Shown: positions 9,394 through 33,800 of the stretch, in pieces
Layout: every line of letters starts with the position of its first letter
How positions within the stretch are numbered: position 1 is the stretch's first letter
Assembly: GCA_040388985.1 (NCBI GenBank)
Contig: JAZKAU010000003.1
Span: 110,896-174,895, forward strand
Length of the DNA: 64,000 nucleotides
Origin: Patescibacteria group bacterium
Lineage (GTDB): Bacteria; Patescibacteriota; Minisyncoccia; Phycocordibacterales; Phycocordibacteraceae
Direction: 5' to 3'
The notes under the pieces: generated by a model
The model's input: only the letters and a program-made list of their open reading frames with translations
The model's database searches: none
What the model was told of the DNA's origin: nothing
Made by a program: the position numbers and the translations under genes

Positions 9394-9400
9394 ACGAGCA

Positions 9401-12887: not shown

Positions 12888-15800
12888 TTAGGATGCGGGG
12901 GAAGAGTCAGGAGTTGGTGCAGGGTCGGATGAGACTACGGGGGCAGGATCCGGTTCGGGCGCAGGAGGCGCATCGGATCCCCCGCCTACGGCAGGCGCGA
13001 GCACGCTCACGGTGCGCGTTGCTTCTGCAAAGCGGCCGCTGGCGTCAGTCGCGCGGTAGGTCAGCGTGTAATCCCCGGGGGTCTGCGCATTCACGCCGCC
13101 CGAGACCGCGATCGAGCTCGTGAGGTCGGTGCCGTCAGCGGCTGCCGCAGTCGCGCCCGGATCCGTCCAAGTCGCGCCTTGCGCGATCTGGATCGAAGAT
13201 CCTCCGGTAAGCTGTATGACCGGATCGGTACCATTCTGAGGTTGTGTCCCGGACGGAGGAGGAGTCTGCTGATCTCCCGAATTCGGCGGCGCGACCGACG
13301 GCTGCGAAGGCGGAACGTTTCCGACGCTCGCTATCTGACCCTCAGTCTGTACGAGGAAGTAATCGAAGGATACCGGGATATCCTGCGCCTTGGCGAGCGT
13401 TATCGTGAAGCTTCCCTGCTCCTTCTTCGAGATGTACCAGGAACCATCGATTGAGCTCGTGAAGGTGAGGAATATCTTGGAAGTCGGGAGAACGAGGCTG
13501 TTCTCGACCTTGAATTCGGTCTGGCCGTTCGGAATCACGACGGATCCGGCGCTTGCCGTGCCGTTGCTATCAGCACTCAGTACGAGCTGATGCGTGACGA
13601 TGGTCGTGAACTGCGCGATACCGTCATGCACGATGATACCGAGCTCCTCGAGCAGCTTCTCGAGTCCGGAAGCCGCGATGCTGAGCGGGCCGGTGGCGCT
13701 CGTACTCGTAGCGTTCTTAGCTGTCTCGAGAAGGGCGAGGCGCGACTCAAGGTCGTCGATACGCAGTGCGAAGGTGTCGAAGCGTGCGCTCAGCGCCTGT
13801 ACGCCAGCGACGCCGTAGCTTGCGAGCTTGTAGAGATCCACGTTCGTAGCGCTATCGGTAAGGACTTCGTCGGGCAGCGTCACGCTGATAGTCGTCGAGC
13901 CGTACGCGAACGTCGTGGCGTTCGCCGGCACGATGTAGCGGGCAGCCGATACGGTGCCGTCGGCGTTCACGCTCTGCGCGTGCAAGGTGCCTGCAGATAC
14001 GCCTTGCGCAATCTCCATGCTCGCAGCCGTCACGCTCGTAGCCACGAGCTCATGCGGGAGCTGCGCCGCCGCCTGCTCGGCGGTCGCCTTGCTCTCGACG
14101 CTATCCAGGCGGACCGCGAGGCTTGTGAAGGAACTCGCGAAGGAGTCAGTCCTGCCAGCGAGCTCCTTGATGGCGTTCACGCTCGCGGCGATGATAGGAC
14201 GGTCGGCAAGCGTGAGGAACCCCCGGCTGTCAGTTGCCACGGCTTCAGGAATGGCCGATTGCACGTTCTGGGCGCTGAAACCGGCATACTGGCCGTTCTG
14301 GTCGAGTCCGGACGTCGCATTCCAGTGGTAGAGGATAGGTGAAAGCTTCTCTATATCCGCGAGCCCGCGCGTAAAGCTACCACTGATGTTCTTCAGCCGC
14401 TCGTCGGAGGAAGCCGTTACATTTCCTAAGTTGTCGGTCGTGAGATTCGCGCCCGCGCTCGCAAGGCCGGCGAAGCGGACCGAGCCGGTGGTCGTGAGCT
14501 GTGCGGTAGGCGTACTGGTACCGATACCGAGATTACCGGCACCGGTGAGCGTAAGGAGGTTCGCGCCGGATGAGGACGCTACGGTGAAGGGATTCGTACC
14601 CGCCGTCCCGAGCACGGTGAGGGATCCTCCTGAGGATATGCCGCCCGTACCTACCAGCAGTCCGTTGCGTATATAGAGGTCACCGCCGATGTCCCCGTTC
14701 TCGAGCACGCTCAGGGTCTGCGTATTGGCGGCACCGAAGCTCGCCGAGGGCGCTTCCATGCCATCTATATCAAGGACCGTGAACTTCGAGCCAGCGTTCA
14801 CGTACGCATACTTTCCGGAGATGAATATGCCGCGCGGATTATTCAGGTTAGTCGAATCCTGCAGCGACGTGACGACCGTAGGCGCAGCGGGATTCGAGAT
14901 GTCGACGATCGTAAAGCGGTTAGTACCGTTCGCCGAGACGTACGCATAGCGGCCTGCGACATACATGTTCTTCGGCGCGTTCAGGTTCGTGTTATCCACG
15001 ATTCCGGCCACGAGAGTCGGGGCCGACGGCGTCGAGACATCGACGACGGCGAACGAGTTCGTATTCTGACCGAGCACGTATGCGTAGCGGCCGGACACGT
15101 AGACGTCCTTTGCGTTGAGCAGATACGTAGCATTGTTGAGGGATCCGACGACGACGGGAGCGGCTGGGTTCGAGACGTCGACGACCGTGAGTCTGGAGCC
15201 GGTCGCTCCCGCCGTGGTCACATACGCGTACTTTCCCGAGACATACACAGAGTCCGGGGTCAGGAGGTTGGTAGCATCTACTATCGAGCCTGCAATAACC
15301 GGCGTAGTCGGATTCGAGATGTCGACGACGACGAGCGCGTTCGCGCCGTTCGCGGCGACATACGCGTAGCGGCCGGAGATATACAGGCCGCGCGCAGAGT
15401 TAAGGAGCGAGTTAGTTACGGAGCCGACCACGGCAGGAGCGGCAGGATTCGAGACGTCGACGACCGTGAACCTATTCCCGCCGGTAGCGGTCACATATGC
15501 ATACTGGCCCGCAACGCGGACGGTGAATGCACCGTTCAAGTTGGTGGAGTCGACGACCGAGCCTACCACAACGGGGGCAGACGGGACTGCGATATCGATG
15601 ACGGACAGCTTGAAACCGCCAGCCGCGTCGACCGAGTACGCGTAGCGGCCGGAGATAGCCACGCCGATGCCGTTCGTACCGCTCGCTATGCTCACCGTGC
15701 CTTTCACGGTAGGGACTGTCGAGACGGTCTGGAGATAGCTGCCTCCAGTGAGCGCGAGGCGGGTTGAGGGGGTCGAGGTACCGATTCCGACGTTCCCGGA

Positions 15801-18800
15801 ATCGAGGACAGTCAGGAGCGGCGTATTGGATGAGTTCGTAAGCTGGAAGTTCGCAGCAGTGGTCGTTCCCACGCCCTTGACCGAGAGCCGGGCGAACGGA
15901 GAGGTCGTTCCCACGCCGAAGTTACCGGTGGTATCGAGGAAGATAGAGGAAGTCGCCGTGAACGTATTGGTAGCGCTGAAGTAGCCGAGCTGGCCGGTGG
16001 TACCGGTCAGGAGAGCCTGCTTATTGTTGAACGTGATCCAGTCAGCTGCCGTAAGGAAGCCCTTGGTGGTCGAGGCGGCGGCCTGGCCGTTGGCGTAGTC
16101 GAGCGATATGAGACCTGAACCGTTGTCGTTGAAGTCGGCGGCTAGGAAGGTTGCCGCTCCCTTGGTGGCGCCGTCTGCCACCGCGTTGTTGATACCGAGC
16201 GCGCCTCCGGTGAAGGTGAGCGGGCTCGATACCGTCGCGTTGCTGAAGCCGCCCGAACCGTTTCCGTAGAGGAGTGAGGAGCCGGTGGTGGCGGGGGCCA
16301 AGCCCAGGGAAGTGGTGGAGACCGAAAGCGCGCCTCCGACATTCGAAAGTCCGCTGCCAAGCAAGCTGGTGAAGGTGGAGCCTCCCAGGGTGAAGTTGGT
16401 CGTAGCTTCGTTGGTAGTCGTAGCGCTTGAGGCAGTGAGCGTGCCGAGCGTGGTGGCTCCTGAAACGGTGAGATTAGTCGTCGACGCATTCCCCAGACTG
16501 GTCTGGCCCGACACCGTAAGACTCGTGAGCGTACCCACGCTCGTGAGACTTGAGTTGACGACATTCGCGGCGAGCGTCGTACCCGTGAGCGTTCCTGCCG
16601 GAGCCACCACCGCGTTCGTGGAGACTGCGGTGATGAGGCCCTTGGCGTTGACCGTGAAGCTCGGGATGGCGGTGGATGAGCCGAAGGAGCCTGGGGTTGC
16701 GTTGACAGTGGCGAGGGTGAAAGTTGCGGAGCCCGGGCCTGTGGCGGTGCCGTCACCCGTGAGTGCGGTGATGTAGTTGCCGGATGCTTGGAAGCCGAGG
16801 GTTGAAGTGGCGACCCATTGAGGCGGAGCTCCTGCACCGAAGGACTGCAAGACCTGGCCTGAGGTGCCGGCTTGGCTGTTGAAGAGTGCGGCACCTGCCT
16901 GCGTGATCTCGAACATGCTGGCATTGGTGGATGAGGATACGCGGAACGGATTGGTTCCCCCGAGGCCCGTGACCTGCAGAGTGGTTGCAGGGGTAGTGGT
17001 GCCGATGCCGACAGAGCCCGCAAAGTAGTTGATGTCTGAGGTGCCCGCCGCATACACGCCATATCCGTTGGTCACGCCAGTGATCTTCTGCGCCTGCGCA
17101 TACAGGCCGTATGCATTCGTCACAGTTCCTGACGTTATCGTAGGAGTACGTCCGACCACTCCATATCCGTTGGTTATCGTTCCACCTCCGAGGATACGCA
17201 CACTAGCGATCGCTCCGTATGCGTTTGTCACGGTACCCGCGTTACTGACTTGTGAGTTTCCATCAAATCCGGTGGCGCCTCCGATCCCCGTATTCGTGAC
17301 CTCGAACGCAGCACCGTAGGTCATGCTCGAAGTGTTGAAGACGGTAGAGTTCGATGAAGAAAGTAATGCAACGGAAGTGCTGTTACTGCCGTTACCAATA
17401 ACGAGGTTTCCGCCGAGCTTAACATTGCCCGCCGCGACATGAAGAGCCCACGCGTTCGTAATCGTTGTATTGGTGCTCGCAAGCGGTGCGTTCGCTATAT
17501 AGAGAGTAGAGGCATCCGTAAGAGTAACCGGGCTCGACGCGACGAGCGTCGGCCTTCCGAAGGAGCTCGCGGCGCGCGTCGCGATAGTGCCAGAACCTGA
17601 GGTGTCTGTGAGCGTACTCGCATCTACCGCGAGGTTGAGGCCGGTTGTCGTCCATGAGGCTGCAGATTTCGCGCCACCGATATTCAAAAGTGCGGCAGGT
17701 GCGATAACTCCGATTCCGACATTCCCCGTACTAGTGACCGTAAGCAGTCTCGCCTCCGTAGAAGAGGCAATGGCGAATATATCTCCCGTGCCTGCGGTTC
17801 CGGTAACGGCAAGTCTTGCCGACGGCGTACTCGTCCCCACTCCCACATTCCCTCCGCTCGTGATGGAGAGTCGCGTGGTATTGCCCGTGATGAGATTCAG
17901 CTGGTTGCTGTCGATGGTGCCGAGCGTCGCTGTCGCTCCGAATGAGTTGCCTCCTTGTTTGAAGTAGGTGGTGTCGAGTGCAAGAGATGATGTTGAAACA
18001 GTGAGAACTCCTGCAGTATTGGTAAGACCGGTACCAAGAAGTGATGTGAAGGTCGAACCACCGAGCGTGAAGTTGGTCGTAGCTTCGTTGGTAGTCGTAG
18101 CGCTTGAGGCAGTGAGCGTGCCGAGCGTGGTGGCTCCTGAAACGGTGAGATTAGTCGTCGACGCATTCCCCAATGTGGTCTGGCCAGAGACCGTGAGCGC
18201 CGTGAGGGTACCGACGCTTGTGAGGCTCGAGTTCACGACGTTCGAAGCGAGCGTGGTCCCGGTCAGCGTCCCTGCTGGAGCCACCACCGTACTGGTGGAG
18301 ACCGCGGTGATGAGGCCTTTGGCGTTGACCGTGAAGACTGGGATGGCAGTTGAGGAGCCGAAGGAGCCTGGGGTTGCGTTGACAGTGGCCAAGGTCGCAG
18401 CAGCTGAGCCGGGGCCGGTCGCGGTGACGTCACCGGTGAGTGCGGTGATGTAGTTGCCGGATGCTTGGAAGCCGAGGGTTGAGGTGGCGACCCACTGGAT
18501 ACCGGTGCCGGTGGTCTGGAGGACTTGGCCGTTTGTTCCAGCTGAGGTGTTGCCCGCGTACAGAGCTCCAGTGAGGCCGATGTCGCCTGCCACCGTGAGC
18601 GTGCGTCCAGGGGTGGTGGTGGCGATGCCGACGTTGCCAGCTGCAGTAAGTACCATTGCAGCATTTGATGTGGCACCAATAAAGAGATTGCTTGAGTAAC
18701 GAATACCAAGGTCGGTAGCCGCAGAGCCTGTGAAGTACGCAGATGCGCGACCGAAGTTCTGAACTGAAGCGCCAAGTGCGGAAAGTGAAATAGTTGGGAG

Positions 18801-21800
18801 TACCGATGCTGTACCACTATCAATATGGAGCTGAGTAGAGGGTGTCGTCGTCCCGATACCGACGAGACCTGCCTGAGTGATAGTTACTTTGTCAGTACCT
18901 GCGGTCTGCAAGCGAAGGTTCGCTGTTCCTCCTGCTGAGAACGTAGAGTTTATATATGCGCCACTCGCGTCTGCTCCGAGCTTAATGAGATTATTCCGGC
19001 CGGCCACAGCATCGTAGAGCGTCAACGTGCCTCCCGAACCGATAACGGTTGCAATGTTTCCATTTACATCAAGTTTGTTTGTAGGCGTCGTAGTACCAAT
19101 GCCGAAGTTTCCTGTCGAAGTGAGGTATGCCTGATAGCTAGTCGCGCCGGTAGCATATGCAGTATTCCCGCCCGTAAGTCCGATTCCTCCGAAAGCGCTT
19201 ACAGAAAGGTCACCCGTTGCCCCTGTGCTTTGACGTGTGAGCGAGAACATCCCCGAACCTGCTCCATTGTCTGCATAAATACCCTGCCCTACGCCTATTG
19301 CTGATAATCGCAAGTTACCGGCAGATACATTGAGCTTATCCGCAGGCGTCGTCGTCCCGATACCGACGAGACCTGCGCTTGAGATATACATCTGCGAAAC
19401 ATCGTTCATACGGAAATCGAGCGCCCCGCCGGTCGGCCTGTTAATGAACAGTGACGTACCCGCACTATAGAAGTTCGCACTCCCTGTCGCGAGCGAGCCG
19501 CTAAGCGATATGGCTCCGTAGGTGGAACCTCCTCCCCATTCTCCTATCGCTACGTTTCCTGTTCCTGATCCTTGAACTATGAGCTTGCTTCCAGGAGTAC
19601 TCGTCCCCACCCCCACATTCCCTGACGTATCGATCGTGAGACGCGTGGCGTTGTTGGTCTTGAACTGCAGGAGGTTCGAGTCGTTCGTACCGAGTACAGC
19701 CGTCGCCCCAAAGCTGTTCCCTCCCTGCTTGAAGTAGTTGGTGTCGAGTGCCAAGGATGAGGTGGAGACGGTGAGGACACCTCCTGAGTTGGTGAGACCC
19801 GTACCGAGGAGCGAGGTGAAGGTCGAGCCTCCCAGGGTAAAGTTCGTTGTCGTGAGCGATGTGGTCGTTGCAAGAGCAGCGGTGAGGTTTCCAAGAGTTG
19901 TAGCTCCTGAAACCGTAAGCGCAGTGAGGGTACCGACAGACGTGAGCGAAGAAGTAACAACATTAGAGGCAAGCGTGGTCCCGGTCAGCGTGCCCGCCGG
20001 AGCCACCACCGCGTTCGTGGAGACTGCGGTGATGAGGCCCTTGGCGTTGACCGTGAAGGTCGGGATGGCGGTGGATGAGCCGAAGGTGCCGGGGGTTCCG
20101 TTGACGGTGGCCAGCGTCGTGGCGATCGAGGTGGTGCCAGAACCGGTGACGTCACCCGTGAGAGTGATGGTCTGGTTGCCGGTGAGGTATGAGACGTTGG
20201 AGGCTGCGGTGACGAGGCCTTTGCCGTTCACCGTGACGTTGTTGAAGGTGCCCACGTTTCCGTTGACGGTGGCAAGCGTGAAGGCGGCTGAGCCGGGGCC
20301 TGTAGCGGTGCCGTCACCGGTGAGTGCGGTGATGTAGTTGCCGGAGGCCTGCTTCCCGTTGAACGTGATCCAGTCAGCTGCGGTGAGAAAGCCCTTGGAG
20401 GTAGAGGCGGCTGCCTGGCCGTTGGCGTAGTCAATTGAGATGTTGCCGGAAGAGGCGTCAAAGTCGTTAGCGTTGAAGGAGGCTGCACCCTTGGTTGAGC
20501 CGTCAGCGAGCGCGTTCGCGATACTGATGGTATTTGATGAGATAGAAAGCGGAAGAGTCGCGCTGGTGATGCGATTCTGATACGCAGTCTCCCAGTTCGT
20601 GGTGGAAGCAGTGAGCGGTATATTGTATCCACTCGTTAGAGAGAAGACACCTGTGCCTGAGGTATACGTGAGACCGGTAGCGGTTGAGGAGAAGAGACCG
20701 CGGACCGTAGAGGAGTCGAGCGTGAGCGCACCACCTGTGTTCAGGAGCCCGGTGCCAGTGAGGTCGGTAAAGGACTCGCCGTTCACGTTGATGCCGGAGG
20801 AGAATGTAGCGAGGCCGGTAGTGAGCGAGGTGCTACTCACGAGCAACGTGCCAGCGATGATGCCATTGCCACCGACCGTAAGAGCCTCCGATGCGGTAGT
20901 GGTGCCGATACCGAGATATCCGTTTCCATCGATGCGCGCACGCTCCACGCTACCTGTACTGAAAGCGATCACGTTCGCCGTCGGGTGTCCGATACCGGTA
21001 GACAGATCCCCGGTCCACGTATAGGAAGGAACGGAAGCTGACGAACCGATGGAACTCACGAGCTGGCGCGCGGTATTGATGCGCAATGCTTCCGTATTAT
21101 TCGTCTCGAAGACGAGCGCATTGCCGTCATTGGTGCCGAGCGTCGCGGTCGCTCCGAATGAATTACCATCTTGCTTGAAGTACGTGGTGTCGAGAGCGAG
21201 GGATGAAGTCGAGATGGTAGCGGTAAGCACGCCTCCCACATTGCTGAGCCCGCTGCCAAGCAAGCTCGTGAAGGTCGATCCGCCGAGCGTGAAGTTGGTG
21301 ACGCCGAGATTCGTGGAAGTGGCGCTGGTGAGGGTGGTGTTGCCGAGCGTAGTCTGGCCTGAGACCGTCAGGTTAGTCGTCGACGCATTCCCCAATGTGG
21401 TCTGACCCGACACCGTGAGACTCGTGAGCGTACCCACGCTCGTGAGTGAGGAGTTCACGATGTTAGAGGCAAGCGTGGTGCCGGTCAGCGTTCCTGCAGG
21501 AGCCACCACCGCGTTCGTGGAGACTGCAGTGATGAGGCCCTTGCCGTTGACCGTGAAGGTCGGGATGGCGGTGGAAGAGCCGAAGGTGCCGGGGGTTCCG
21601 TTGACGGTGGCCAGAGTGAAGGTTGCGGAGCCCGGGCCAGATGCTGTTCCGTCACCGGTGAGTGCGGTGATGTAGTTGCCTGCTGCGGCGAAGCCAAGTG
21701 TACTGGTACTCACCCATTGAATTCCTGTGCCGGTGGTTTGGAGGACTTGGCCGTTTGTTCCGCGGGTGCTATTTCCGTCGTATATGCCACCGCCGCTCAC

Positions 21801-24800
21801 TGAGAGGTCACCGACTACCGTGAGCTTTGCGAACGGGGTGGTGGTGCCGATGCCGAAGTTACCCGCAGACGTGAGCGTAGCACGTGTACCGCCATTCGCG
21901 CGGAAGATAAGGTTATTACCGTTGGAGCCAATACCTTGGCCGTTTGCAGCTGTAGAACCGCTGTCTGCGAGCATGAGGTATGAGAAGGTATCGGTTGATT
22001 GTATCTGCGCCAAGGCTTGTGCCGAACCATACACATGGAGTGCTGCTGACGGGCTCGTAGTACCAATACCGACGTTGCCACTTGAGGTATTGAACACAAC
22101 CTTGTCGGTACCATTCACATCAGCAATCGAGACAACGTTCGGTGCAAAATAACGGAACTGACCTCCAGAAACACCACTTGAAGATAGCTGTAAGAATGAA
22201 TCGTTTGCGGTACGATCGATGGTTATGCCGGCTTGGCTTCCCGCAATCGTAAGAAGTGAACCCGGAGTGGTAGTACCGATACCCACGTTGCCGTTATCGA
22301 GCACCTCAAAAGCATTTGTAGGCGTTCCATTTACGTCTGAGGCTATCCGGAATAGTGAGCGCCCCACCTCGGCCGCTTTTGAAGCGAAATAAACCATCGG
22401 CGCAGTAGGATCGGTCCAGCCATCTACCTTAAAGGAAGATGCGCCTGTAGAAGCTCGATATACCTCGAGATTTGAAGTTGGAGAGGTAGTACCGATACCG
22501 ACGTTGCCACTCGTATCGATGGTAAGTCGCGTGGTGTTGTTGGTCTTGAACTGCAGGAGGTTGCTGTCGATGGTACCGAGTACGGCTGTTGCACCAAATG
22601 AGTTTCCGTTCTGCTTGAAGTACGTACCATCAAGACCAAGCGCGTTTGACGTTGTGGCGACAGAAAGAGTTCCTGCAGCAAATGAAAGACCCGTACCAAC
22701 TGTTGCATTGCTGAAGCCACCCGTTCCATTTCCATACAGAAGGCTGTTGCCGGTGGTAGCACCTGCAAAGCCGAGGGTGCTGGTACTCACCCACTGAATT
22801 CCTGTGCCGGTGGTTTGGAGGACTTGGCCGGTGGTTCCGCGGGTTGCGTTGTTGTCATAGATTCCTCCTCCACTAATTGAGAGGTCACCGACGACTGTGA
22901 GCTTTGCAAAAGGAGTGGTGGTGCCGATGCCGACGTTACCAGCAGCAGTGATCCTGAGCCTCTCGGCTAGGGCGCCTGACGAATTCTGCGTTAAGAATGT
23001 AAGCGCTGTGGGTGCTGCAATGCCAGCGTAATCCGCACCGTCAGCGACGACGTTTATATTGGCGACTTCACGGTTGATCAAGGAAGAAGCATCGGAGGTG
23101 TAGAAACCGATCTTTGCGACCGTATCTCCATTTACTACGGCAGCGCTCGTATTGCCTATAGCAATCTGGTTCGAACCCGTTGCTCCAGCGATCGACAACA
23201 GAGATATCGGCGACGAGGTACCAATACCGACGTTGCCAGCACCAGTTATACGCAGCTTCTCTGTAGACGCAGAAGCCCCAAGACCACTATTGGTGTAGAA
23301 GGCCAGGTTGCCTGTGCTACCAGCAGCATCTGTTACGCCAGCAATGCGTGCGTAGGCATTAGCCGCCGCTCCAGCGTTAGCTGAACCGGCGTACCAGTCG
23401 ATTGAGTGCCCCGCATTCACGGCACTTATTCCTCCTTCTATGCGTAGCGCCCCTGATACCGTACTTACAGAGCCATTGTTTATATCAAGCTTAGCTGCAG
23501 GAGTCGTTGTGCCGATACCGACGTTGCCACCCGTCTTTAGAGTAAGCAGGTCACCAACTCCCTGCTGGTCGTAGAAACGCAGGTCGCCAGAGCTTGCTGG
23601 GTTATAGATATTCCAATACGAAATATTATCCTTTGCGAAGCTGAGCGTCTTTGCCGCTGAAGCTGGGCCATCGATCCTGATTACCGGAGTCGCTGCATAG
23701 ACATGCAGCGTTGTACCTGGTGATGTGGTGCCAATCCCGACGTTGCCCGCACTCGTGACAGAGAGCCGTGTCGTATTGCCCGTGATGAGATTCAGCTGGT
23801 TGCTGTCGATAGTACCGAGCGTCGCCGTCGCCCCGAATGAGTTGCCTCCTTGTTTGAAGTAGGTGGTGTCGAGTGCGAGTGACGAGGTCGAGACGCTGAG
23901 AACTCCTGCAGTATTGGTAAGTCCCGTGCCAAGGAGCGAGGTGAAGGTTGAGCCGCCGAGAGTGAAGTTCGTTGTCGTGAGTGATGTAGTCGTTGCGAGA
24001 GCAGCGGTGAGGTTTCCAAGAGTGGTTGCGCCAGAGACCGTAAGCGCCGTAAGGGTACCGACCGAGGTAAGGGAGGAGTTCACGACGTTAGACGCAAGCG
24101 TCGTACCCGTGAGCGTTCCTGCAGGAGCCACCACCGCCACTGAGCCTGCTGCGGTGATGAGGCCCTTGGCGTTGACGGTGAAGGTCGGGATGGCGGTGGA
24201 TGAGCCGAAGGAGCCTGGGGTTGCGTTGACAGTGGCGAGGGTGAAAGTTGCGGAGCCCGGGCCTGTGGCGGTGCCGTCACCCGTGAGTGCGGTGATGTAG
24301 TTGCCTTGAGCCTGGTACTGAGGGATGTTGAGGACGTTTGCAGTGAGGGTGGCGGCTCCAGAGGTACCGGTGGTGGTGAGTGAGGTGATCCTGTTCTGGT
24401 ATGCGGCCTCCCAGTTAGTGGTGGAGGCGGTGAGCGGGATGGTGTATCCAGCGGTTAAGGAGAAGACACCGGTACCTGCGGTGTAGGTGAGGCCGGTCGC
24501 CGTGCTTGAGAACAGGCCGCGTGCAGTCGTCGCGAAGTCAGAGATAGTCGCAGCAAGCTGCGTACCTGTGTGGTTCGCGCGGTTGAGGTAGTAGGTGCCG
24601 TCCTGGCCGTCGAGGAGGTCGGCGTTGAAACCGGAGCCGCTTCCGGAGAAGGAGGTGGTCGAGACCGACAGAGCTCCGCCGGTATTCACGAGACCGAAGC
24701 CGGTGAGGTCGGTGAGGTAGTCGCTCCCTACGCCAAGCGTAGTCGCATACAGCGAGGTAGTGGTCGCGTTCGCAGCCGTGAGGTTGCCGGTCGCGGATAT

Positions 24801-27800
24801 ATTGCCGCCAAGCGACAGGTTACCCGAGAGGATTCCGTTGCCTACGACGGTTAGCGCCTCCGCAGGCGTTGAGCTTCCGATCCCGAAGAATCCGTTGCCG
24901 TCGATATAGGCACGGCCGACGCCGCCGGTAGCGAATCCGATCAGATTAGAGCCTGCGTGATAGAGGCCGGTCGTAGCGTCCCCTGCGAACGAGAAGCCTG
25001 GCGCGCCTACCGAATCGCTTGCACGGAATTGCGGAGCGGTAACGGCGCCTCCGGTAAGCGCGAGATTCGTACCATTATAGGTAAGCGCCGAGCCCGACGT
25101 GATGCTCGTACCATTGAAGTACGTCACGCCGTTCGTCGTCTGGGACGCGGCATTGGTGCCTCCGTTCGCGATACCAAGCGTACCGGCAAGCGTAAGCGTG
25201 CCCGAAGTGGTGATGGGACCGCCGCTGAAGGTGAGGCCCGTGGTGCCTCCCGAAGCGTCTACGGAAGTTACCGTTCCGCTCGTGAATCCGAGCGTACTAG
25301 TACTCACCCACTGTATGCCCGTGCCGGTGGTTTGGAGGACTTGGCCGTTGGTTCCTGCATTGGTGTTTCCTGCGTACAGGGCTCCGGTGAGACCGAGGTC
25401 GCCTGCGATGGTGAGGGTGCGGCCGGGGGTGGTGGTAGCGATGCCGATCTTCCCTGTCGCTGAAAGGAAGATGGTCGATGTCGCTGTCAGTGTGTTCGTG
25501 CCGTTGTAGTACGGGAACTGACCGGCAGTACCCCCAACCGCAGTCACGGCCGAAGCGCCGTTACCCTGAAGCAGGCCGGAGAGGCTGGAGAAGATAGGAG
25601 CGTTAGTGAACGTCTGGGTGCCTCCCCAAGTATTACTGGTGGTGGTACCGGCATAGAGAGGTATGTTCAAGACGTTGGCGGAAAGAGTTGCGGCTCCGGT
25701 ACCGGTGGTGGTCAGGCTCGTGATGCGGTTTGTATACGCAGTCTGCCAGTCAGTCGTGCTTGCAGTCAGAGGGATGGTGTACCCGCTCGTGAGTGAGAAG
25801 ACGCCGGTGCCTGCGGTATACGTGAGGCCGGTGGCGGTTGAAGAGAAGAGGCCGCGGACCGTAGTGGAGTCGAGGGTAAGCGCACCACCGGTGTTCACGA
25901 GACCCGTACCGGTGAGATCGGTGAAGGACTCGGAGTTAATGCCCAGAGTAGTGGTGTAGAGAGAGGTGGAGGTGGCGTTCGCAAGCGTGGTGTTGCCAAG
26001 CGTGGTGGCACCTGAGACCGTCAGGTTAGTCGTCGACGCATTCCCCAATGTGGTCTGACCCGACACCGTGAGACTCGTGAGCGTACCCACGCTCGTGAGT
26101 GAGGAGTTCACGATGTTAGAGGCAAGCGTGGTGCCGGTCAGCGTTCCTGCAGGAGCCACCACCGCGTTCGTGGAGACTGCAGTGATGAGGCCCTTGCCGT
26201 TGACCGTGAAGGTCGGGATGGCGGTGGAAGAGCCGAAGGTGCCGGGGGTTCCGTTGACGGTGGCCAGAGTGAAGGTTGCGGAGCCCGGGCCAGATGCTGT
26301 TCCGTCACCGGTGAGTGCGGTGATGTAGTTGCCGGATGCTTGGAAGCCCAGGGTACTGGTGCTCACCCACTGTATGCCCGTGCCGGTGGTTTGGAGGACT
26401 TGGCCGTTTGTGCCTGCTGAGGTGTTGCCGGCAAAGAGGGCGCCGGTGAGACCGAGGTCGCCTGCGATGGTGAGGGTGCGGCCGGGGGTGGTGGTGGCGA
26501 TGCCGATGTTTCCGGTCGTATCAATTACCAACTGTGCCGTGAGTGCTCCCACCGGGCTAAATATCGCCTTTCCGTTGTGCTGAAGATATGTGTTGCCGTC
26601 AGAGAACGGATAGATATTGAACTGGTTCGCGCCGGTATTGTTGTACGCAAAGGTTGCCGCAGGAATCCCGTTATTCGTACTCTGAACGCTCAGGATAGAG
26701 CTCGGTGACGACGTACCGATGCCGATGTTACCCGTCGATATCGTTGCGCCCGTGCCTGAAAGGCCGGTTCCGTATATGAGGTTACCGATGTTGAGCTGAT
26801 TGCTTGCCGTCGAGCTTGCAACAGCGACATCGTTACCGATTGAGATATTATTTGAACCGGTCGTCACTTGATTCAGTGATGCGGTAATAGTGCTGTTGCC
26901 AAGGAATACGTTGCGCGCACCTGTCGTGATACTGCGACCAGACTGGTAACCGATGAGGGTATTGAAGTCGGAACCGGTATCAAGGCTCATACCAGCCTGG
27001 AAACCAACGAAAGCACCGCCCTGGTTTGAGTATCCTACAGCTCCAAGTCCTGCGCGCGCGCCAATCGCTACCGTAGTCGTTGCTGAAATATTATTCTGTA
27101 GCGCAGATGAGCCGATAGCAGTCGCACTGATGCCGGTAGAGCTCAGCAGAGCCGCTGAACCGATAGCCGTATTGCCTGAGGAAACGGTGTTTGCAAAGAG
27201 CGCTTCGTATCCAATACCGACATTGTTGTTGCCAGTCGTATTCGCAAGGAGTGCGAGGGATCCAATACCGACGTTAGTTACGCCCGTCGTATTACTCTGC
27301 AGGGCTTGCGAACCGATAGCCGTGTTTGCATTCCCCGAAGTATTGGCGCGAAGCGCGAAGAAACCGATTGCGGTGTTATCGCTAGACGATGTCGCAGTAA
27401 AGAGCGCCTGGTGTCCGAGAGCAGTGATATGGGTTGCAGTCGTTATTGAGGCGCCGGCAGAAATACCCACGAGGAGGTTATTAAGCGTCGACGAAGCAGT
27501 AAGAATCGTCGAACCGGCCTGCTTATAGCCGCTGTACTGGTCGGTGTTTATAAATCCTGCAACATCGAGCTTATAGAGAGGGCTTGTAGTCCCAATGCCG
27601 ACGTTGCCGCCGGGAAGGACAGTTACGTAGGATGAGAGGCCGCTCGTAGTTCCCTTATTCGCAGCACCCTGTCCATATATCGTGAATGCGTTGGCAGCAT
27701 TGAACACAAGCCCCGTTCCACCGGATGTCGCAATGGTGGACGTATAGTTACCACCCGGTCCTTCAACGAGACTGACGGCACTCGAACCTGCAGAATAAAT

Positions 27801-30800
27801 GTGAAGTATCGAAAGGGGTGATGTAGTGCCAATCCCCACATTCCCTCCACTCGTAATAGAGAGGCGTGTCGCATTGCCCGTGATGAGGTTCAGCTGATTG
27901 CTGTCGATGGTGCCGAGCGTCGCCGTCGCCCCGAATGAGTTGCCTCCTTGTTTGAAGTAGGTGGTGTCGAGTGCGAGGGATGATGTTGATACGGTGAGAG
28001 TACCACCAACGTTGCTGAGTCCCGTACCAAGGAGCGAGGTGAATGTTGAACCACCGAGAGTGAAGTTTGTGACGCCGAAGTTAGTAGAGGTGGCGTTCGT
28101 CGTCGTACCGCTGGTTGCAGTGAAAGTAGAGAGTGAAGTAGCTCCTGAAACCGTAAGCGCAGTGAGCGTACCGACAGACGTGAGTGAAGATGAAACAACA
28201 TTGCTTGCAAGTGTCGTGCCGCTAAGTGTTCCTGCTGGAGCCACCACCGCGTTCGTGGAGACTGCGGTGATGAGGCCCTTGCCGTTGACGGTGAAGGTCG
28301 GGACTGAGCTGGCACCTCCGAAGATACCCACGTTGGTGTTGACTGTGGCCAGGGTAAAGGCGGCTGAGCCCGGGCCAGATGCTGTGCCGTCACCCGTGAG
28401 TGCAGTGATGTAGTTGCCTGAGGCTTGGAAGCCGAGGGTTGAGGTGGCGACCCATTGTATGCCGGTGCCGGTGGTTTGGAGGACTTGGCCGTTTGTTCCG
28501 CGGGTGCTATTTCCGTCGTATATGCCGCCGCCGCTCACTGAGAGGTCACCGACCAGAGTGAGCTTTGCAAACGGGGTGGTGGTACCGATGCCGATGTTGC
28601 CCGAACTATTAATCGTCATCTGCTGTGCACCGCTGGTATTGAAACGTATCACGCCGTTACCAACGGTAATGGAGTTGTTAGAGGTGTAGGAAAGTATTGA
28701 ACCACCCGCATTACTAAGACTAAGAGATGGATTAATTGTATCGCCATACAAGAATCCTCCTGTTGAAAGAGCGATGTTGCCCGCTACGTCTAGCTTCTGG
28801 CTTGGAGTGGTGGTGCCGATGCCGACATTGCCATTATCAAGAATTGTAAACAATGCTGTATCCAAAGAGTTTGTGGTCTGGAAGTTTGTAGTAGCCGACG
28901 TGTTTCCAAGACCTTTTACAGTAAGACGTGCGAACGGCGACGTAGAGCCAATACCTACCTGTCCACCTGTGAGGAAACTCATTATTTCGGTTTGCGTACC
29001 GTTAGAGGCTGTTCCCGTAATCGAACCTCGATAGAGACCGCCCGAGTTAGATCGAATTCCATATCGTATAGCATCTTGTGCTACCGCTGATCTAGAGAAA
29101 CTGATTCCTTGATCTACGTTAATTGCACTCGGAACACCGACTGTTAGAAGGTAGTTAGGAGTAGTTGTCGCAATACCGACGTTGCCTGTAGTTGAAATCC
29201 AAAGCGCAGAAGAGGTGGACGTAGGACTGATCGACGAGCCGCCCAGACCAGGTGTAAAGCCGATGCCACCAAATGCTGCTATCTGTAGTGAGGCAGAGGA
29301 AACGTCATCCTTGCGTGAGAATCCGAATAGTCCAGAACCGTTGACTGGATTAACAGCGCTAATAAGCGGTGATGCAGAACTTATGCGGAGATTACCCGCC
29401 ACATCAAGTTTATCGCTTGGCGTGCTGGTACCAACTCCCACATTCCCTCCACTCGTGACAGAGAGGCGCGTCGCATTGGCCGTGATGAGATTCAGCTGAT
29501 TAGCGTCGATAGTACCCAGAGTAGCGGTTGCACCGAAGCTGTTCCCTCCTTGCTTGAAGTACGTGGTGTCGAGTGCCAAGGATGAGGTGGAGACGGTGAG
29601 GACGCCTCCTGAGTTGGTGAGACCCGTACCAAGGAGCGAGGTGAAGGTCGAACCACCGAGCGTGAAGTTAGTGACACCGAGGTTGGTGGAGGTGGCGTTC
29701 GCGAGACTTGTATTCCCTGAGACCGTGAGACTCGTGAGCGTACCAACACTAGTGAGTGAGGAGTTCACGACGTTAGACGCAAGCGTGGTGCCGGTCAGCG
29801 TTCCTGCAGGAGCAACCACCGCGTTGGTTGAGACTGCGGTGATGAGGCCCTTGCCGTTCACCGTGAAGGTCGGGATGGCGGTGGATGAGCCGAAGGTGCC
29901 GGGGGTTCCGTTGACGGTGGCCAGCGTCGTGGCGATCGAGGTGGTGCCAGAACCGGTGACGTCACCCGTGAGAGTGATGGTCTGGTTGCCGGTGAGGTAT
30001 GCGTTGGTGTCGACCGAAAGAACACCTGAGGAATCCGTCTTAACGAAGCCTGCGGTCGCGAGATTTGAGAGCGTAGTGATGTTCTGAGAAGTGTTTACGT
30101 TGAAGCTGCCTGCGGAATACGTGAGGCCGGTGCCTGCGGTGGTGGTAGCGACCCACGTCGGAATGCCGGCGACAAGCGCGAGGACCTGGCCGTTAGATCC
30201 GGGAGTCGTCGTCGCAAGCGCTGACGAACCATTTCCATAAAGGACGGCTCCAGAAGTGATAGTGGACCAGCCGGTGCCGCCATTTGTCACTGGCAAGACG
30301 CCCGAGACCTCGGAGCCAAGAAGTACGTTGCTTGCTCCGACGACACCGCTTGAGGCGTGAAGGACGCCAGTCAAAGAGCCGAGGGTGACCGTACCTGCGG
30401 TAGTGATGCCGCCACTAAAGGTCTGGAGAGCGCTCCAAGAATTGGCGCTCGTCGTGCTCACGATGAGCGGGATGTTGAGGACGTTTCCGGTAAGCGTTGC
30501 CAGGCCGCCTGAGCCGTTCGTGGTAAGAGACGTAATTCTATTGGCATACGCAGTCTGCCAGTCAGTCGTGCTTGCGGTCAAAGGAATGGTGTAGCCGCTC
30601 GTAAGGCTGAAGACGCCGGTGCCTGCGGTATAGGTAAGGCCGGTGGCGGTTGAGGAGAAGAGGCCGCGTGCGGTTGTGCTGAAGTCGCTGATGGTTGAAG
30701 CAAGCTGCGTACCGGTGTGGTTCGCGCGGTCGAGGTAGTAGGTGGAGTCCTGGCCGTCGAGGAGGTCTGCGTTGAAGCCTGAGCCGCTTCCGGAGAAGGA

Positions 30801-33800
30801 GGAGGTCGCGACGGAGAGGGTGCCGGTGGTGAGCGTAAGGCCGGTGCCCAGCGTGACGGAAGAGAGCTGCTTGGCGCCATTAGCGTAGGTAAGAGTATTT
30901 GCCGTAAGGCCGTTGTCGATAAGCTGGCCGAACGTACCCGTACCTGAAATGAGCGCATTGCCGCCTACTGAGAGCGCTGCCGAAGGACTCGTCGTCGCGA
31001 TGCCGAGCCTCGTCGAGATATACTCCTGTCCACTCACTTCGAAGATGCTGTTAGTGGTCGAGGTCGCATTCGTCCCCACGAGGAGTACGTTCGAAGTATC
31101 GATAGGGTAGATCAGATTTGTAGACGTAGCGAAGACGCCGTCGCCGCTGCCGCCGGCTCCTATCGTCTGATCGATTCCCCAAGCCGGGAATCCAGCCTGC
31201 ACTTTCAGCACCTGCCCGGAAGAACCGACCGGAAGCTTCGCGAGGACCCCGCTGTTATCGGCATAGAGGATATCGCCGGGACTATAGCTCGCGAAGCCGG
31301 TGCCTCCGTTTGCGCTCGGGAGCGTGCTCGTCACGTCGGTCGAGAGATCGATGAGCGCGGTTCCCACCGTTCCGGCAGTAGCCTTGAGGAAGCCGGACAA
31401 AGAACCGATGCTGAGCGAATTCACGTTCGCAGCCCCGGTGGTCGTGAGACTCGCCGCTGATACCGAGCCTGAGATTGCGGCGTTGCCCGCAACCGTAAGA
31501 CGTTCCGGAGGCGAGGTGGTGCCGATGCCGAAATTCCCGTTGGTAAGGAACGTTGCGACCGTCGCATTACTCGTAATGATATTGAGCGGATTGACGTCCG
31601 TAGTGCCGAACCTTGCCGTCGTACCGAAGGCATTTCCTCCCTGCTTGAAGTACGTGGTGTCGATCGCAAGCGATGAGGTGGAGACGTTGAGCGTGTTCCC
31701 TGTCCAGGTTAGGCCCGTACCTGCGGTGATGCGGGTGGAGGGAGTCTGGTAGAAGGAGTCCCAGTTGGTGGTGGAGGCGGTGAGCGGAATGGTAAAGCCG
31801 GGAGCCACCGAGAGCGTGCCCGCGCTGAAGGCAAGCGGTGAAGAGACGGTGGCAGCACCCACAGTCCCGTTATTTCCATACAAGAGACCTGAGAGTGAGC
31901 CGATGGTGAGATTAGTCGTCGACGCATTCCCCAATGTGGTCTGGCCAGAGACCGTGAGACTCGTGAGCGTGCCAACACTAGTGAGTGAGGAGTTCACGAC
32001 GTTGCTTGCGAGCGTCGTACCCGTGAGCGTTCCTGCCGGAGCCACCACCGCGTTCGTGGAGACTGCGGTGATGAGGCCCTTGGCGTTGACGGTGAAGGTC
32101 GGGATGGCGGTGGATGAGCCGAAGGAGCCTGGGGTTGCGTTGACAGTGGCGAGGGTGAAAGTTGCGGAGCCCGGGCCTGTGGCGGTGCCGTCACCCGTGA
32201 GTGCGGTGATGTAGTTGCCGGATGCTTGGAAGCCCAGGGTACTGGTGCTCACCCACTGTATGCCCGTGCCGGTGGTTTGGAGGACTTGGCCGTTTGTGCC
32301 TGCTGAGGTGTTGCCGGCAAAGAGGGCGCCGGTGAGACCGAGGTCGCCTGCGATGGTGAGGGTGCGGCCGGGGGTGGTGGTGGCGATGCCGATGTTGCCG
32401 CCAAGGAACACTCCGGCTGGCCCGCTACCGTTCTGCTGTATCAGGAACGCAGTACCGGACGAAGTTGATGATGCAGAGAGTTGAGCTGAAGGAGTTGTTG
32501 TCCCGACGCCAAAGAATCCGGTAGCAGCATCGAATCTAGCCATTTCGGACGGCGTAGCACCAAATCCATAGAATGAGATGTTTCTCCCTGCACTTGCACT
32601 CGTATTGATAATGCGTAGGTTTGTTTGATTCGCCTGTAAGTACGCAGTATTAGCGGTTACTCCAACAGTATTAGCGGTATATGCCGTTCCGACTGAACCA
32701 AGTGTAATTCCTACACCGGCTGCGCTCTGTGCCGTAATCACCGGACCCGAGTTTGTACCGTTCAAGAAGTTCATTACTAGAATTCCCCTTTGAGAGTTTG
32801 CTGCTAGAGAGATACCTAAGCCATGTCCTGAAAGCGTCGTCGTACCTATCCCGACACCCGTGGTGGTAAAGATGTCACCGCTTACAGAAAATAGAGACTG
32901 CGGCGTACTCGTCCCCACCCCCACGTTCCCTGACGTGTCGATCGTGAGACGCGTGGCGTTGTTGGTCTTAAGCTGAAGAGCGTTGTTGTCGATGGTACCG
33001 AGTACAGCCGTAGTACCGAACGAGTTCCCGTTCTGCTTGAAGTACGTAGTGTCGAGCGCAAGTGATGAGGTGGAGACGTTGAGCGTGTTCCCTGTCCAGG
33101 TTAGGCCCGTACCTGCGGTGATGCGGGTGGAGGGAGTCTGATAGAAGGAGTCCCAATTAGTCGTGCTTGCAGTCAGAGGAATGGTGTATCCGCTCGTGAG
33201 CGAGAACACGCCGGTGCCTGCGGTATAGGTGAGGCCGGTGGCGGTTGAGGAGAAGAGGCCGCGGACCGTAGTGGAGTCTAGGGTGAGCGCACCACCGGGG
33301 TTCAGGAGTCCGGAGCCGAGCAGGCTCGTGAAGGTCGAACCCCCCAGCGTGAAGTTAGTGACACCGAGGTTGGTGGAGGTGGCGTTCGCAAGCGTGGTGT
33401 TGCCAGACACCGTGAGACTCGTGAGGGTACCCACGCTCGTGAGTGAGGAAGAGACCACGTTGCTGGCAAGCGTGGTACCCGTGAGCGTTCCTGCAGGAGC
33501 CACCACGGCGTTCGTGGAGACTGCAGTGATGAGGCCCTTGCCGTTGACCGTGAAGGTCGGGATGGCGGTGGAAGAGCCGAAGGTGCCGGGGGTTCCGTTG
33601 ACGGTGGCCAGCGTCGTGGCGATCGAGGTGGTGCCAGAACCGGTGACGTCACCCGTGAGAGTGATGGTCTGGTTGCCGGTGAGGTATGAGACGTTGGAGG
33701 CTGCGGTGACGAGGCCTTTGCCGTTCACCGTGACGTTGTTGAAGGTGCCCACGTTTCCGTTGACGGTGGCAAGCGTGAAGGCGGCTGAGCCCGGGCCTGT

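What the first reader, a model, noticed from the sequence alone, without database searches (positions are those of the whole stretch)
12891..14408. S74 intramolecular-chaperone domain sits internally, with about 350 aa of extra C-terminal sequence after it
Seen in sequence: SDERLKNISG...LSPILYHW...GFSAQNVQSAIPEAV...AIKELAGR closely follows the Peptidase_S74 consensus. In endosialidase and phage T5 pb1, this domain folds the fibre trimer and then cleaves itself off at the Ser of S-D-x-R-L-K. In phage fibres it is the extreme C-terminus. Here it is followed by a coiled coil, an Ig-like/DUF5011-like domain and a Pro-rich tail. If cleavage occurs at S7753, a 506-aa C-terminal fragment containing an Ig-like domain would be released.
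Basis: partly seen in the sequence, partly recalled or inferred. Interest (0 to 1): 0.65.

Follow-up and report, generated by a model that had tools for sequence, protein, structure and literature searches.

The report
Internal self-cleaving domain, giant bacterial fibre

Summary
Window 12891-14408 (minus strand) encodes the last 506 residues of an 8,258-aa ORF (12888-37664). Ser7753 starts a Peptidase_S74 / intramolecular-chaperone (ICA) domain: Pfam 37.2 bits against a cut-off of 22, with profile and fold matches to solved ICAs including MYRF. The SDERLK Ser/Lys pair is intact.

The first "coiled coil" is the ICA's own helix. After it come a decayed second ICA that has lost the Ser/Lys segment, a well-predicted β-sandwich resembling phage tailspike C-terminal domains, a DUF5011 Ig-like domain, and a Pro-rich tail.

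The gene is chromosomal, with housekeeping neighbours and synteny in two other Parcubacteria. The cassette recurs in about 80 Patescibacteria species, always at the C-terminus of huge proteins. Ser and Lys are invariant in 92 of 92 upstream S74 domains, so cleavage is probably selected for. It was not tested here.

My best reading is a cleavable, extended C-terminal assembly cap on a trimeric surface fibre. This is a new variant of a known kind.

In relatives, but not in this window:
- Up to five ICAs lie inside one protein.
- A split intein carrying a nuclease cassette fractures the gene just after the ICA.

The parts
12888..37664 (-). Giant ORF of 8,258 aa plus TAA stop. Thr/Gly/Ser/Ala-rich repetitive fibre protein.
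   Evidence: It carries 30 copies of the GNVGIGTTTPxxxL motif, 9-10 copies of larger repeats, and a single Cys.
37476..37625 (-). N-terminal HTH_17 domain, aa 14-63.
   Evidence: PF12728, 29.4 bits, cut-off 27.
37239..37295 (-). Only strong hydrophobic segment near the N-terminus, aa 124-142. Presumed membrane anchor.
   Evidence: Kyte-Doolittle 19-residue window mean 1.94. The anchor role is an inference.
14760..15656 (-). LVIVD-repeat β-propeller region, about aa 7337-7635, just upstream of the last fibre segment.
   Evidence: PF08309 176.8 bits in 6 stretches, plus PF09826. Coordinates.
14496..14537 (-). Last fibre motif GNLGIGTSTPTAQL, aa 7710-7723, 30 residues before the cleavage-site Ser.
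14064..14408 (-). Complete S74 / intramolecular chaperone (ICA) domain, aa 7753-7867. It consists of a β part plus a 47-residue helix (aa 7821-7867). The Pfam hit covers aa 7753-7809.
   Evidence: PDB profile hits 8jov E 2.5e-15, 6f45, 7dc3, 3gud; pLDDT 84-96; Foldseek to MyRF ICA 7dc3, E 8.8e-5.
14406..14408 (-). Codon of Ser7753, the predicted nucleophile and the first residue of the released fragment.
14391..14393 (-). Codon of Lys7758, the predicted general base of the Ser-Lys dyad.
14004..14063 (-). Short low-confidence linker, aa 7868-7887. The split or contiguous intein of relatives lies a few residues downstream, at about aa 7893-7896, near the start of the pseudo-ICA.
   Evidence: pLDDT below 50; for the intein site.
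13710..14003 (-). Degenerate second ICA (pseudo-ICA), aa about 7888-7985. It keeps the core motifs and a 42-residue helix (aa 7944-7985). The Ser-x4-Lys segment and about 31 residues are deleted.
   Evidence: hhalign probability 89.6%, E 1.9e-6; second A1 hit at profile positions 64-118, E 0.002; alignment to the catalytic second S74 of relatives.
13350..13673 (-). Conserved β-sandwich domain with no Pfam family, aa 7998-8105. Its fold resembles phage tailspike or depolymerase C-terminal domains.
   Evidence: 18 invariant columns; pLDDT 94-98; PDB hits weak only, best E 6.6e-3; BFVD: 15 hits with E<=1e-3, many named 'K1 capsule-specific polysaccharide lyase C-terminal domain'.
13218..13349 (-). 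Pro/Gln/Ser-rich linker, aa 8106-8149.
   Evidence: sequence; (pLDDT 33-39).
13002..13217 (-). Ig-like domain PF16403 (Bact_surface_Ig-like, former DUF5011), aa 8150-8221.
   Evidence: 77.6 bits; BT_2262, chitinase 60; 5fq7, E 4e-7.
12891..13001 (-). Pro-rich, predicted disordered C-terminal tail, aa 8222-8258. It has no TM segment and no sortase-type motif.

Best explanation
The region is the C-terminal assembly-and-release cassette of a membrane-anchored giant trimeric surface fibre of a Parcubacteria (Patescibacteria/CPR) cell.

Proposed order of events:
1. The chain is exported with its N-terminus (HTH plus one TM segment) held in the membrane.
2. The C-terminal cassette emerges last and brings three chains into register. 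The elements that do this are the ICA (aa 7753-7867), the pseudo-ICA helix, and the β-sandwich.
3. The ICA nucleates folding of the triple-β-helix-type repeats upstream of it.
4. Once the trimer is formed, the Ser7753/Lys7758 dyad cuts the bond before Ser7753.

The products would be a 7,752-residue anchored fibre, whose new distal end lies just past the lineage-variable LVIVD propeller, and a trimeric 506-residue cap. The cap consists of the ICA, pseudo-ICA, tailspike-like β-sandwich, Ig-like domain and Pro-rich tail.

Shown here: domain identities, an intact dyad, its strict conservation, recurrence and C-terminal position of the cassette, and the cellular genomic context.

Inferred: trimerisation, membrane topology, the cleavage itself, and that the cap is mainly an assembly device rather than the working tip.
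For: ICA identity:
- PF13884 above its threshold.
- Profile hits to four solved ICA-bearing proteins, with Ser and Lys aligned. The self-cleaved chain 3gud starts at SDERHK.
- The predicted fold matches MyRF ICA 7dc3.

Selection on catalysis:
- Ser, Lys and one Gly are invariant in 92 of 92 S74 domains that lie upstream of this module in 82 loci. Neighbouring positions vary freely.
- Where catalysis is lost, as in the pseudo-ICA, the whole Ser-Lys segment is deleted rather than mutated.

Fibre nature:
- 30 GNVGIGTTTPxxxL motifs. These resemble the S74-associated β-helix capping-loop motif V-G-G/N-π-x-x-P-x-x-x-L described for Bdellovibrio MAT fibres and MYRF (PMC10769870).
- MAT fibres that end in S74 self-cleave at the Ser (same paper).

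Cassette as a constant part:
- The pseudo-ICA and β-sandwich align in 79-82 of 82 loci at a median 45-51% identity. The fibre body and LVIVD region align in only 5-19 loci.
- The module always lies 5-315 residues from the C-terminus of proteins of up to 7,275 aa.

Cellular, not phage, context:
- Neighbours are GAPDH, Rpe, a split transketolase, GatB, Obg, RNase J and SecA.
- The locus is syntenic with two other Parcubacteria.

Precedent for an internal ICA that cuts a protein into two trimers: MYRF (PMC3742443).
Against: - No experiment or multimer model shows trimerisation or cleavage here.
- The β-sandwich and Ig domains look like adhesin or tip domains of tailspikes and surface proteins. 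This would fit a working distal tip that should not be cut off.
- At least five species carry the module with no catalytic S74 within about 1,900 upstream residues (L051, L056, L058, L060, L072). Release is therefore not obligatory for the module's function.
- In relatives a split intein is maintained that ligates the module onto the ICA. That seems wasteful if the cap were purely disposable.
- The structural matches of the β-sandwich to solved structures are weak (best PDB E 6.6e-3, TM about 0.4).
Confidence: 0.6

Rival explanations
1. Permanent tip. The ICA serves only as a trimerisation and folding nucleus and does not cut, or cuts rarely, in this context. The pseudo-ICA neck, β-sandwich and Ig domain form the permanent distal adhesive tip of the fibre and contact the host cell.
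For: - The β-sandwich resembles tailspike and pyocin-fibre C-terminal domains and lectins.
- The Ig domain is of a surface-protein, carbohydrate-associated type.
- Some species have the module without any nearby catalytic S74.
- The split intein in relatives restores covalent continuity between the ICA and the module.
Against: - Ser and Lys are invariant in 92 of 92 domains while everything around them drifts. That is hard to explain without catalysis.
- ICAs carrying this dyad that have been tested do cut: endosialidase and T5 pb1 (own knowledge), Bd3182 (PMC10769870) and MYRF (PMC3742443).
- Receptor-binding tips are normally the most variable part of a fibre. Here the module is the most conserved part.
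Confidence: 0.2
2. Two functional products, as in MYRF. Cleavage occurs, and the released 506-aa trimer is itself a working molecule. It could be a secreted or loosely retained lectin-like factor that binds a conserved glycan on host or self envelopes. It would not be a mere chaperone remnant.
For: - There is strong purifying selection on the β-sandwich: 18 invariant columns of 131, and 153 cluster representatives at E<=1e-30.
- The module contains adhesin-type folds.
- Intein splicing is maintained to join the ICA and the module in one chain.
- MYRF's C-terminal fragment is of similar size (S578-D1111) and stays as an oligomer.
Against: - No ligand, anchor or secretion signal is identifiable in the fragment.
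- Conservation is equally expected for a folding or registration device.
- There are no expression or localisation data.
Confidence: 0.17
3. Artefact. The internal position results from an assembly chimera, a read-through of two genes, or a decaying pseudogene.
For: Giant repetitive genes often break or mis-join assemblies. Many homologues are partial and sit at contig ends.
Against: - The reading frame is uninterrupted over 24.8 kb.
- The same order S74 - (pseudo)ICA - β-sandwich - Ig occurs in one ORF in dozens of independent genomes and metagenomes.
- The gene order downstream is conserved.
Confidence: 0.01

Closest known systems
Phage C-terminal intramolecular chaperone domains (MEROPS S74): K1F endosialidase, T5 pb1 L-shaped fibre, GA-1 neck appendage, S16 gp37
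   Same: Same Pfam family, same Ser-x4-Lys dyad, and the same β part plus long helix. The domain follows fibre or β-helix sequence.
   Different: In phages the domain ends the protein. In MN1 and S-SRM01 the match ends 1-8 codons before the stop. Here about 390 further residues in three domains follow. None of 50,697 phage records matches anything beyond the first 110 residues of the fragment. The host protein is cellular and ten times longer.
Bdellovibrio bacteriovorus MAT (mosaic adhesive trimer) fibres of the S74 group, e.g. Bd3182 (PMC10769870)
   Same: A fibre made by a bacterial cell rather than a phage. It has repeated β-helix capping-loop motifs and an S74 that self-cleaves at its Ser. 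The organism lives on other cells. Non-S74 MATs end in β-sandwich tips instead.
   Different: MATs are about 1,000 aa with a signal peptide, and they end either in S74 or in a tip domain. Here both occur in tandem: S74, then pseudo-ICA, β-sandwich and Ig. The protein is 8,258 aa with an N-terminal HTH and TM segment.
MYRF / MrfA membrane-bound transcription factors (PMC3742443)
   Same: The ICA is internal. Cleavage before the Ser yields two trimers. The C-terminal fragment starts with the ICA and is about 500 aa long. The predicted ICA fold matches the MyRF crystal structure 7dc3.
   Different: MYRF is eukaryotic. Its ICA is followed by a TM helix and a lumenal domain, and its N-terminal product is a DNA-binding trimer. 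Here there is no TM segment after the ICA, the membrane anchor is N-terminal, and the N-terminal product would be a fibre.
C-terminal β-sandwich domains of phage tailspikes and depolymerases (K1 capsule lyase C-terminal domain, Sf6 tailspike, Pam1 tailspike, R2 pyocin fibre)
   Same: Best structural neighbours of the aa 7998-8105 domain. The domain sits at the far end of a trimeric fibre after a helical neck.
   Different: The similarity is at fold level only. PDB matches are all E>=6.6e-3 with TM about 0.4, and BFVD matches reach 2e-5. There is no sequence-family match in Pfam or NCBIfam. The domain is unusually conserved for a tip domain.
Fractured genes with split inteins and free-standing homing endonucleases (PMC2677866). 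This applies to relatives only.
   Same: In 9 related loci the gene is split just after the ICA into ...S74-IntN and IntC-...-β-sandwich-Ig. A nuclease-bearing cassette of 2-3 kb lies between the halves.
   Different: This is absent from the window. The host gene is a giant surface fibre, not a replication or repair gene. The cargo nuclease is of PD-(D/E)XK type (22.4 bits, at threshold).

Membership tests
Peptidase S74 / intramolecular chaperone auto-processing (ICA) domain | Match to PF13884 above the curated gathering score | tested here: met
   37.2 bits against 22, profile positions 1-57 of 58, at aa 7753-7809; 35.4 bits.
Peptidase S74 / intramolecular chaperone auto-processing (ICA) domain | Catalytic Ser and Lys five residues apart (S-D-x-x-x-K) at the start of the domain | tested here: met
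   S7753-D-E-R-L-K7758. The pair aligns with SDERHK at residue 1 of the self-cleaved chain 3gud and with the MYRF site. It is invariant in alignment A1 and in 92 of 92 related domains.
Peptidase S74 / intramolecular chaperone auto-processing (ICA) domain | ICA fold: small β domain followed by a long helix that forms the trimeric coiled coil | tested here: met
   AF2 monomer model with pLDDT 84-96 and a helix at aa 7821-7867. Foldseek to MyRF ICA 7dc3 gives E 8.8e-5, TM (target) 0.57 and 136 columns. The trimeric state was not modelled.
Peptidase S74 / intramolecular chaperone auto-processing (ICA) domain | Preceded by trimeric fibre or triple-β-helix sequence that it helps to fold | tested here: inconclusive
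   There are 30 GNVGIGTTTPxxxL motifs, the last 30 residues before Ser7753, similar to the S74-associated capping-loop motif of PMC10769870. The upstream 53 residues are modelled only at pLDDT 55-76. No multimer prediction was available.
Peptidase S74 / intramolecular chaperone auto-processing (ICA) domain | Trimerisation-dependent autoproteolysis N-terminal to the Ser | not testable with these tools
   Requires expression of the fragment with S7753A and K7758A controls.
Peptidase S74 / intramolecular chaperone auto-processing (ICA) domain | Domain forms the extreme C-terminus (typical of phage members; not a requirement of the Pfam family) | tested here: not met
   About 390 residues follow the end of the ICA helix. 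Phage examples end 1-8 codons after the match.
MYRF-type membrane-bound transcription factor | ICA followed by a transmembrane helix, with an Ndt80-type DNA-binding domain before it | tested here: not met
   There is no hydrophobic segment after aa 7353. Pfam finds no Ndt80/PhoG domain. The protein works like MYRF only in that the ICA is internal.
Bdellovibrio-type MAT fibres | Signal peptide plus a conserved N-terminal β-rich domain of about 130 aa, about 1,000 aa in total, and a single terminal S74 or tip domain | tested here: not met
   The N-terminus is HTH_17 plus a TM segment. The length is 8,258 aa. S74 and a tip-like module occur in tandem. The conserved MAT N-terminal domain was not searched for directly.
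Intein / fractured gene | Intein N- and C-terminal splicing blocks in or around the gene | tested here: not met
   No IntN or IntC match better than E 0.4 in any frame of the window. No cargo ORF homologues. These are present only in relatives.

The most novel reading that the evidence does not exclude
Giant surface proteins of Parcubacteria may be self-processing polyproteins in which ICA domains act as internal, folding-gated cut sites. In the window's protein, one ICA would split the precursor into a 7,752-aa anchored fibre and an ICA-led 506-aa trimer with a tailspike-like β-sandwich and an Ig domain, and that trimer would have its own function. In relatives, up to five ICAs spaced about 1,100 aa apart (P0186) would chop one precursor into several trimeric pieces. 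In other relatives the terminal module is first ligated on by a mobile split intein. This would be a bacterial counterpart of the MYRF 'fold, then cut to release' switch, and a new way to build cell-surface structures from one gene.
Probability: 0.3. Interest if true: 0.75.

Novelty: new variant of a known kind. Interest (0 to 1): 0.55.

Why it matters
Patescibacteria (CPR) bacteria live attached to other cells, and their giant surface proteins are almost entirely uncharacterised. A conserved, probably self-cleaving cassette at the end of these proteins gives a concrete and cheap experimental handle: express about 650 residues and look for a cut that an S7753A mutation abolishes. That would address how fibres thousands of residues long are brought into register, folded and matured.

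The finding also extends the known uses of the phage ICA domain. It is known as a terminal domain in phages and Bdellovibrio and as an internal one in eukaryotic MYRF. Here it would be an internal, and in relatives repeated, processing site in bacteria. The work also identifies an un-named but highly conserved β-sandwich family (153 cluster representatives at E<=1e-30).

I found no paper linking ICA/S74 with Patescibacteria in the searchable library.

Tried and rejected
- A single-sequence phmmer search of the last 606 aa against PDB found only Ig-like matches. A profile of CPR S74 domains was needed to reach solved ICAs.
- NCBIfam gave nothing specific for the region.
- I considered a prophage or phage-island origin and rejected it. 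The neighbours are housekeeping genes, there are no tRNAs, and the locus is syntenic in two other Parcubacteria.
- I considered further hidden S74 copies in the 8,258-aa protein and rejected this. There is one full hit plus only the partial pseudo-ICA, and a single SD.R.K motif.
- I considered an intein in this gene and rejected it.
- I considered a C-terminal anchor after the ICA, such as a TM segment or sortase motif as in MYRF, and found none.
- The weak PP-binding and DUF7310 Pfam hits are treated as noise from repetitive or coiled-coil sequence.
- Literature searches for ICA/S74 in CPR or giant-gene papers returned nothing relevant.
Full report
**1. What is in the sequence**

The flagged interval, window 12891-14408, read on the minus strand, is an open frame of 506 codons beginning SDERLKNISG and ending DSSPAS. 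It is the end of one ATG-to-TAA ORF at 12888..37664 (-) that encodes 8,258 residues.

The protein has these features:
- It is 53% Thr, Gly, Ser and Ala, and contains one Cys.
- It carries 30 copies of a GNVGIGTTTPxxxL motif and 9-10 copies of longer repeats.
- It starts with an HTH_17 domain (aa 14-63; 29.4 bits).
- It has one strongly hydrophobic stretch at aa 124-142.

The neighbouring genes are housekeeping: GAPDH, ribulose-phosphate epimerase, a split transketolase, a type IV pilin-like protein, GatB, Obg, RNase J and SecA. There are no tRNAs. Homologues all come from Parcubacteria, Kaiserbacteria or Paceibacterota. Two other Parcubacteria contigs show the same gene order downstream of the fibre gene (L001; L002). 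This is a chromosomal gene of a CPR bacterium, not a phage gene.

**2. Check of the observation**

Pfam PF13884 (Peptidase_S74, 'chaperone of endosialidase') matches aa 7753-7809 at profile positions 1-57 of 58, with 37.2 bits against a curated cut-off of 22. Ser7753 is profile position 1.

A profile built from CPR S74 domains (A1) hits four solved ICA-bearing proteins:
- a tail fibre, 8jov (E 2.5e-15);
- phage S16 gp37, 6f45 (E 5e-13);
- the MYRF ICA, 7dc3 (E 4e-12);
- the GA-1 neck appendage, 3gud, whose self-cleaved chain begins SDERHK.

The Ser and Lys of SDERLK therefore align with the known dyad. An AlphaFold2 model of aa 7700-8258 places a confident β part (pLDDT 84-96) plus a 47-residue helix at aa 7753-7867. 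Foldseek matches this part to the MyRF ICA crystal structure (E 8.8e-5). PF16403 (the former DUF5011) matches aa 8150-8221 with 77.6 bits.

**3.

The first 'coiled coil' is the ICA's own C-terminal helix. The segment after it, aa about 7888-7985, is a decayed second ICA.
- hhalign of this segment's family against an S74 alignment gives probability 89.6% and E 1.9e-6, over the half that runs from GFxAQ to the helix.
- The S74 profile also gives a second, partial hit there.
- In relatives the same position holds a complete second S74 with an S-T-R-x-A-K dyad. Aligned to it, the window's copy keeps the Y-x-Y, G and P-E motifs and the helix, but lacks the Ser-Lys segment and about 31 residues.

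Next comes a 108-residue β-sandwich at aa 7998-8105 with no Pfam or NCBIfam family. It is modelled at pLDDT 94-98.
- Its best solved-structure neighbours are all weak (E>=6.6e-3) but consistent: C-terminal domains of the Pam1 and Sf6 tailspikes, a Klebsiella phage depolymerase, the R2 pyocin fibre, and H-type lectins.
- Against predicted viral structures there are 15 hits at E<=1e-3. Many of them are annotated 'K1 capsule-specific polysaccharide lyase C-terminal domain'.

A Pro/Gln-rich linker, the Ig-like domain and a Pro-rich tail complete the protein.

**4. How general the arrangement is**

The 506-aa fragment finds 165 proteins. All of the hits that carry a source organism name are from Patescibacteria, with the same domain order. 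A scan of one genome per GTDB species with the β-sandwich alignment returned 80 loci, again all Patescibacteria.

In these loci plus L001 and L002:
- The module always ends a very long ORF.
- 42 loci have one catalytic-looking S74 before it, as here.
- 18 have two.
- 10 have none in the available sequence, five of them with about 1,900 upstream residues.
- 12 carry an intein.

A profile search of 1.84 billion cluster representatives found 153 at E<=1e-30. In the top 130 new proteins (up to 7,275 aa), the domain ends 5-315 residues from the C-terminus, median 167.

By contrast, a search of 50,697 phage records matched only the first 110 residues or fewer of the fragment, that is the S74 domain. 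In the two records inspected, that match ends 1-8 codons before the stop. But the internal position is a lineage-wide design, not a peculiarity of this gene.

**5. Is the ICA likely to cut?**

The indirect evidence is as follows.
- In 92 of 92 S74 domains that precede this module, the Ser, the Lys and one Gly are invariant. Adjacent positions vary: position +1 is D in 47, T in 34 and S in 9.
- Where the domain has decayed, the dyad segment is deleted outright.
- The tested dyad-bearing ICAs covered by the two papers I read do self-cleave: Bdellovibrio Bd3182 and MYRF. From my own knowledge, the phage endosialidases and T5 pb1 do as well.

I therefore consider cleavage before Ser7753 more likely than not.

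**6. What the cap is for**

Two facts point in different directions.

The folds (a tailspike-like C-terminal β-sandwich and a surface Ig domain) suggest a binding tip. However, the module is the most conserved part of these proteins. The pseudo-ICA and β-sandwich align in 79-82 of 82 loci at 45-51% identity. The fibre body and the LVIVD propeller just upstream align in only 5-19 loci. This is the reverse of what is expected for a host-specific receptor-binding tip.

It fits a constant assembly device that registers three very long chains and is removed afterwards. Removal would expose the variable region, here the LVIVD propeller about 100 residues before the cut, as the working end.

I therefore rank the readings as follows:
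- cleavable extended assembly cap, 0.6;
- permanent tip, 0.2;
- two functional products, 0.17;
- assembly or annotation artefact, 0.01.

Two observations argue that the cap is more than waste. Some species lack any nearby catalytic S74. Others maintain an intein that joins the ICA and the module. I list both as evidence against the best explanation.

**7. Comparison with known systems**

- The domain is a member of the S74/ICA family: four defining features were met, one was inconclusive, and one was untestable.
- It is not MYRF-type, because there is no TM segment after the ICA and no Ndt80 domain.
- It is not a Bdellovibrio MAT protein, because the N-terminus and size differ and S74 and tip occur in tandem rather than as alternatives.
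- It nevertheless works most like those two systems.
- I found no paper connecting ICA/S74 with CPR bacteria or with giant genes.

Verdict: a new variant of a known kind, of moderate interest.

**8. Side findings in relatives, not in the window**

(a) In nine loci the gene is fractured a few residues after the ICA helix.
- The upstream ORF ends ...S74-Q|CVVGD...TTANHPYL, which is the N-terminal part of an intein.
- The downstream ORF starts M...VYDIEVEGTHNFVGNDIFAHN|T, followed by the module.
- One locus, L039, has the intein contiguous.
- Between the halves lie a 450-aa ORF and a 155-aa ORF. The 450-aa ORF has a Zn ribbon plus a PD-(D/E)XK domain (22.4 bits, at threshold).
- These ORFs are 71-95% identical across species, far more than the host module. 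This is the 'fractured gene' arrangement of PMC2677866.

(b) Some relatives have several catalytic-looking ICAs deep inside one protein. P0186 (5,473 aa) has five SD.RLK domains at residues 1481, 2646, 3735, 4925 and 5059. This suggests polyprotein-like processing.

Noticed in passing
L001:1028-6682 (also L008, L018, L022, L035, L037, L048, L050, L055; contiguous form in L039): In relatives, the fibre gene is fractured a few residues after the ICA by a split intein. The upstream ORF ends S74-IntN (Cys1 ... TTANHPYL). The downstream ORF starts with a 66-85-aa IntC (about 73 aa in most) ending FAHN|T, followed by the same C-terminal module. About 40 of the 120 database hits start with this IntC. 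It is not present in the window.
   Followed up: partly
L001:2000-4785 and the equivalent gaps of 2-3.3 kb in the other split loci: The DNA between IntN and IntC carries a conserved cassette: a 450-aa Zn-ribbon plus PD-(D/E)XK nuclease-like ORF (PF12705, 22.4 bits) and a 155-aa ORF. A Bro-N ORF lies in the same gap in L001, L008 and L035; in L018 its homologue sits downstream of the module gene. The 450-aa and 155-aa ORFs are 71-95% identical between species, much higher than the host gene (about 50%). This suggests a recently spreading homing element.
   Followed up: partly
P0186 (5,473 aa), P0172, P0126: Some homologous giant proteins contain several catalytic-looking S74 domains deep inside the chain. 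P0186 has five SD.RLK domains about 1,100 aa apart, each followed by more fibre sequence. If all cut, the precursor would be a self-processing polyprotein.
   Followed up: partly
window 37476-37625 and 37239-37295 (-): The giant extracellular-looking protein begins with a DNA-binding-type HTH_17 domain followed by a single hydrophobic segment. This is an odd N-terminus for a surface fibre. Its conservation in orthologues was not examined.
   Followed up: no
window 12143-12844 (+): A 233-aa ORF with a sub-threshold IS200-like Y1 transposase match (20 bits against 23) sits between the fibre gene and GAPDH. A PF01797 gene lies at the corresponding place between the fibre-module gene and GAPDH in the syntenic locus L001 (7367-8011), with two small ORFs between it and the module gene. 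It therefore looks like a conserved, possibly domesticated, neighbour.
   Followed up: no
window 14760-15656 (-): Six LVIVD repeats (β-propeller; 176.8 bits) lie in-line in the fibre about 100 residues before the ICA. This region aligns in only 5 of 82 related loci, so it is a lineage-variable head that would become the distal end after cleavage.
   Followed up: partly
window 12888-37664 (-), e.g. aa 1276, 1816, 3083, 3778, 4454, 5329, 5775, 6403, 6962: The fibre body is built from about 9-10 large repeats of roughly 450-1,270 aa (markers GNYITALTGD, SLTSVGTLTSLTVSG, YFKQGGNSFG), interleaved with 30 GNVGIGTTTPxxxL motifs. Long antisense ORFs inside the gene (for example 13590-14342 +) are by-products of this composition.
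   Followed up: no
window 7539-8919 (-) and 8947-9510 (-): The transketolase is split into separate N-terminal and C-terminal genes, and a type IV pilin-like gene (N_methyl motif) lies close to the fibre gene. Both are also seen in the syntenic loci L001 and L002.
   Followed up: no
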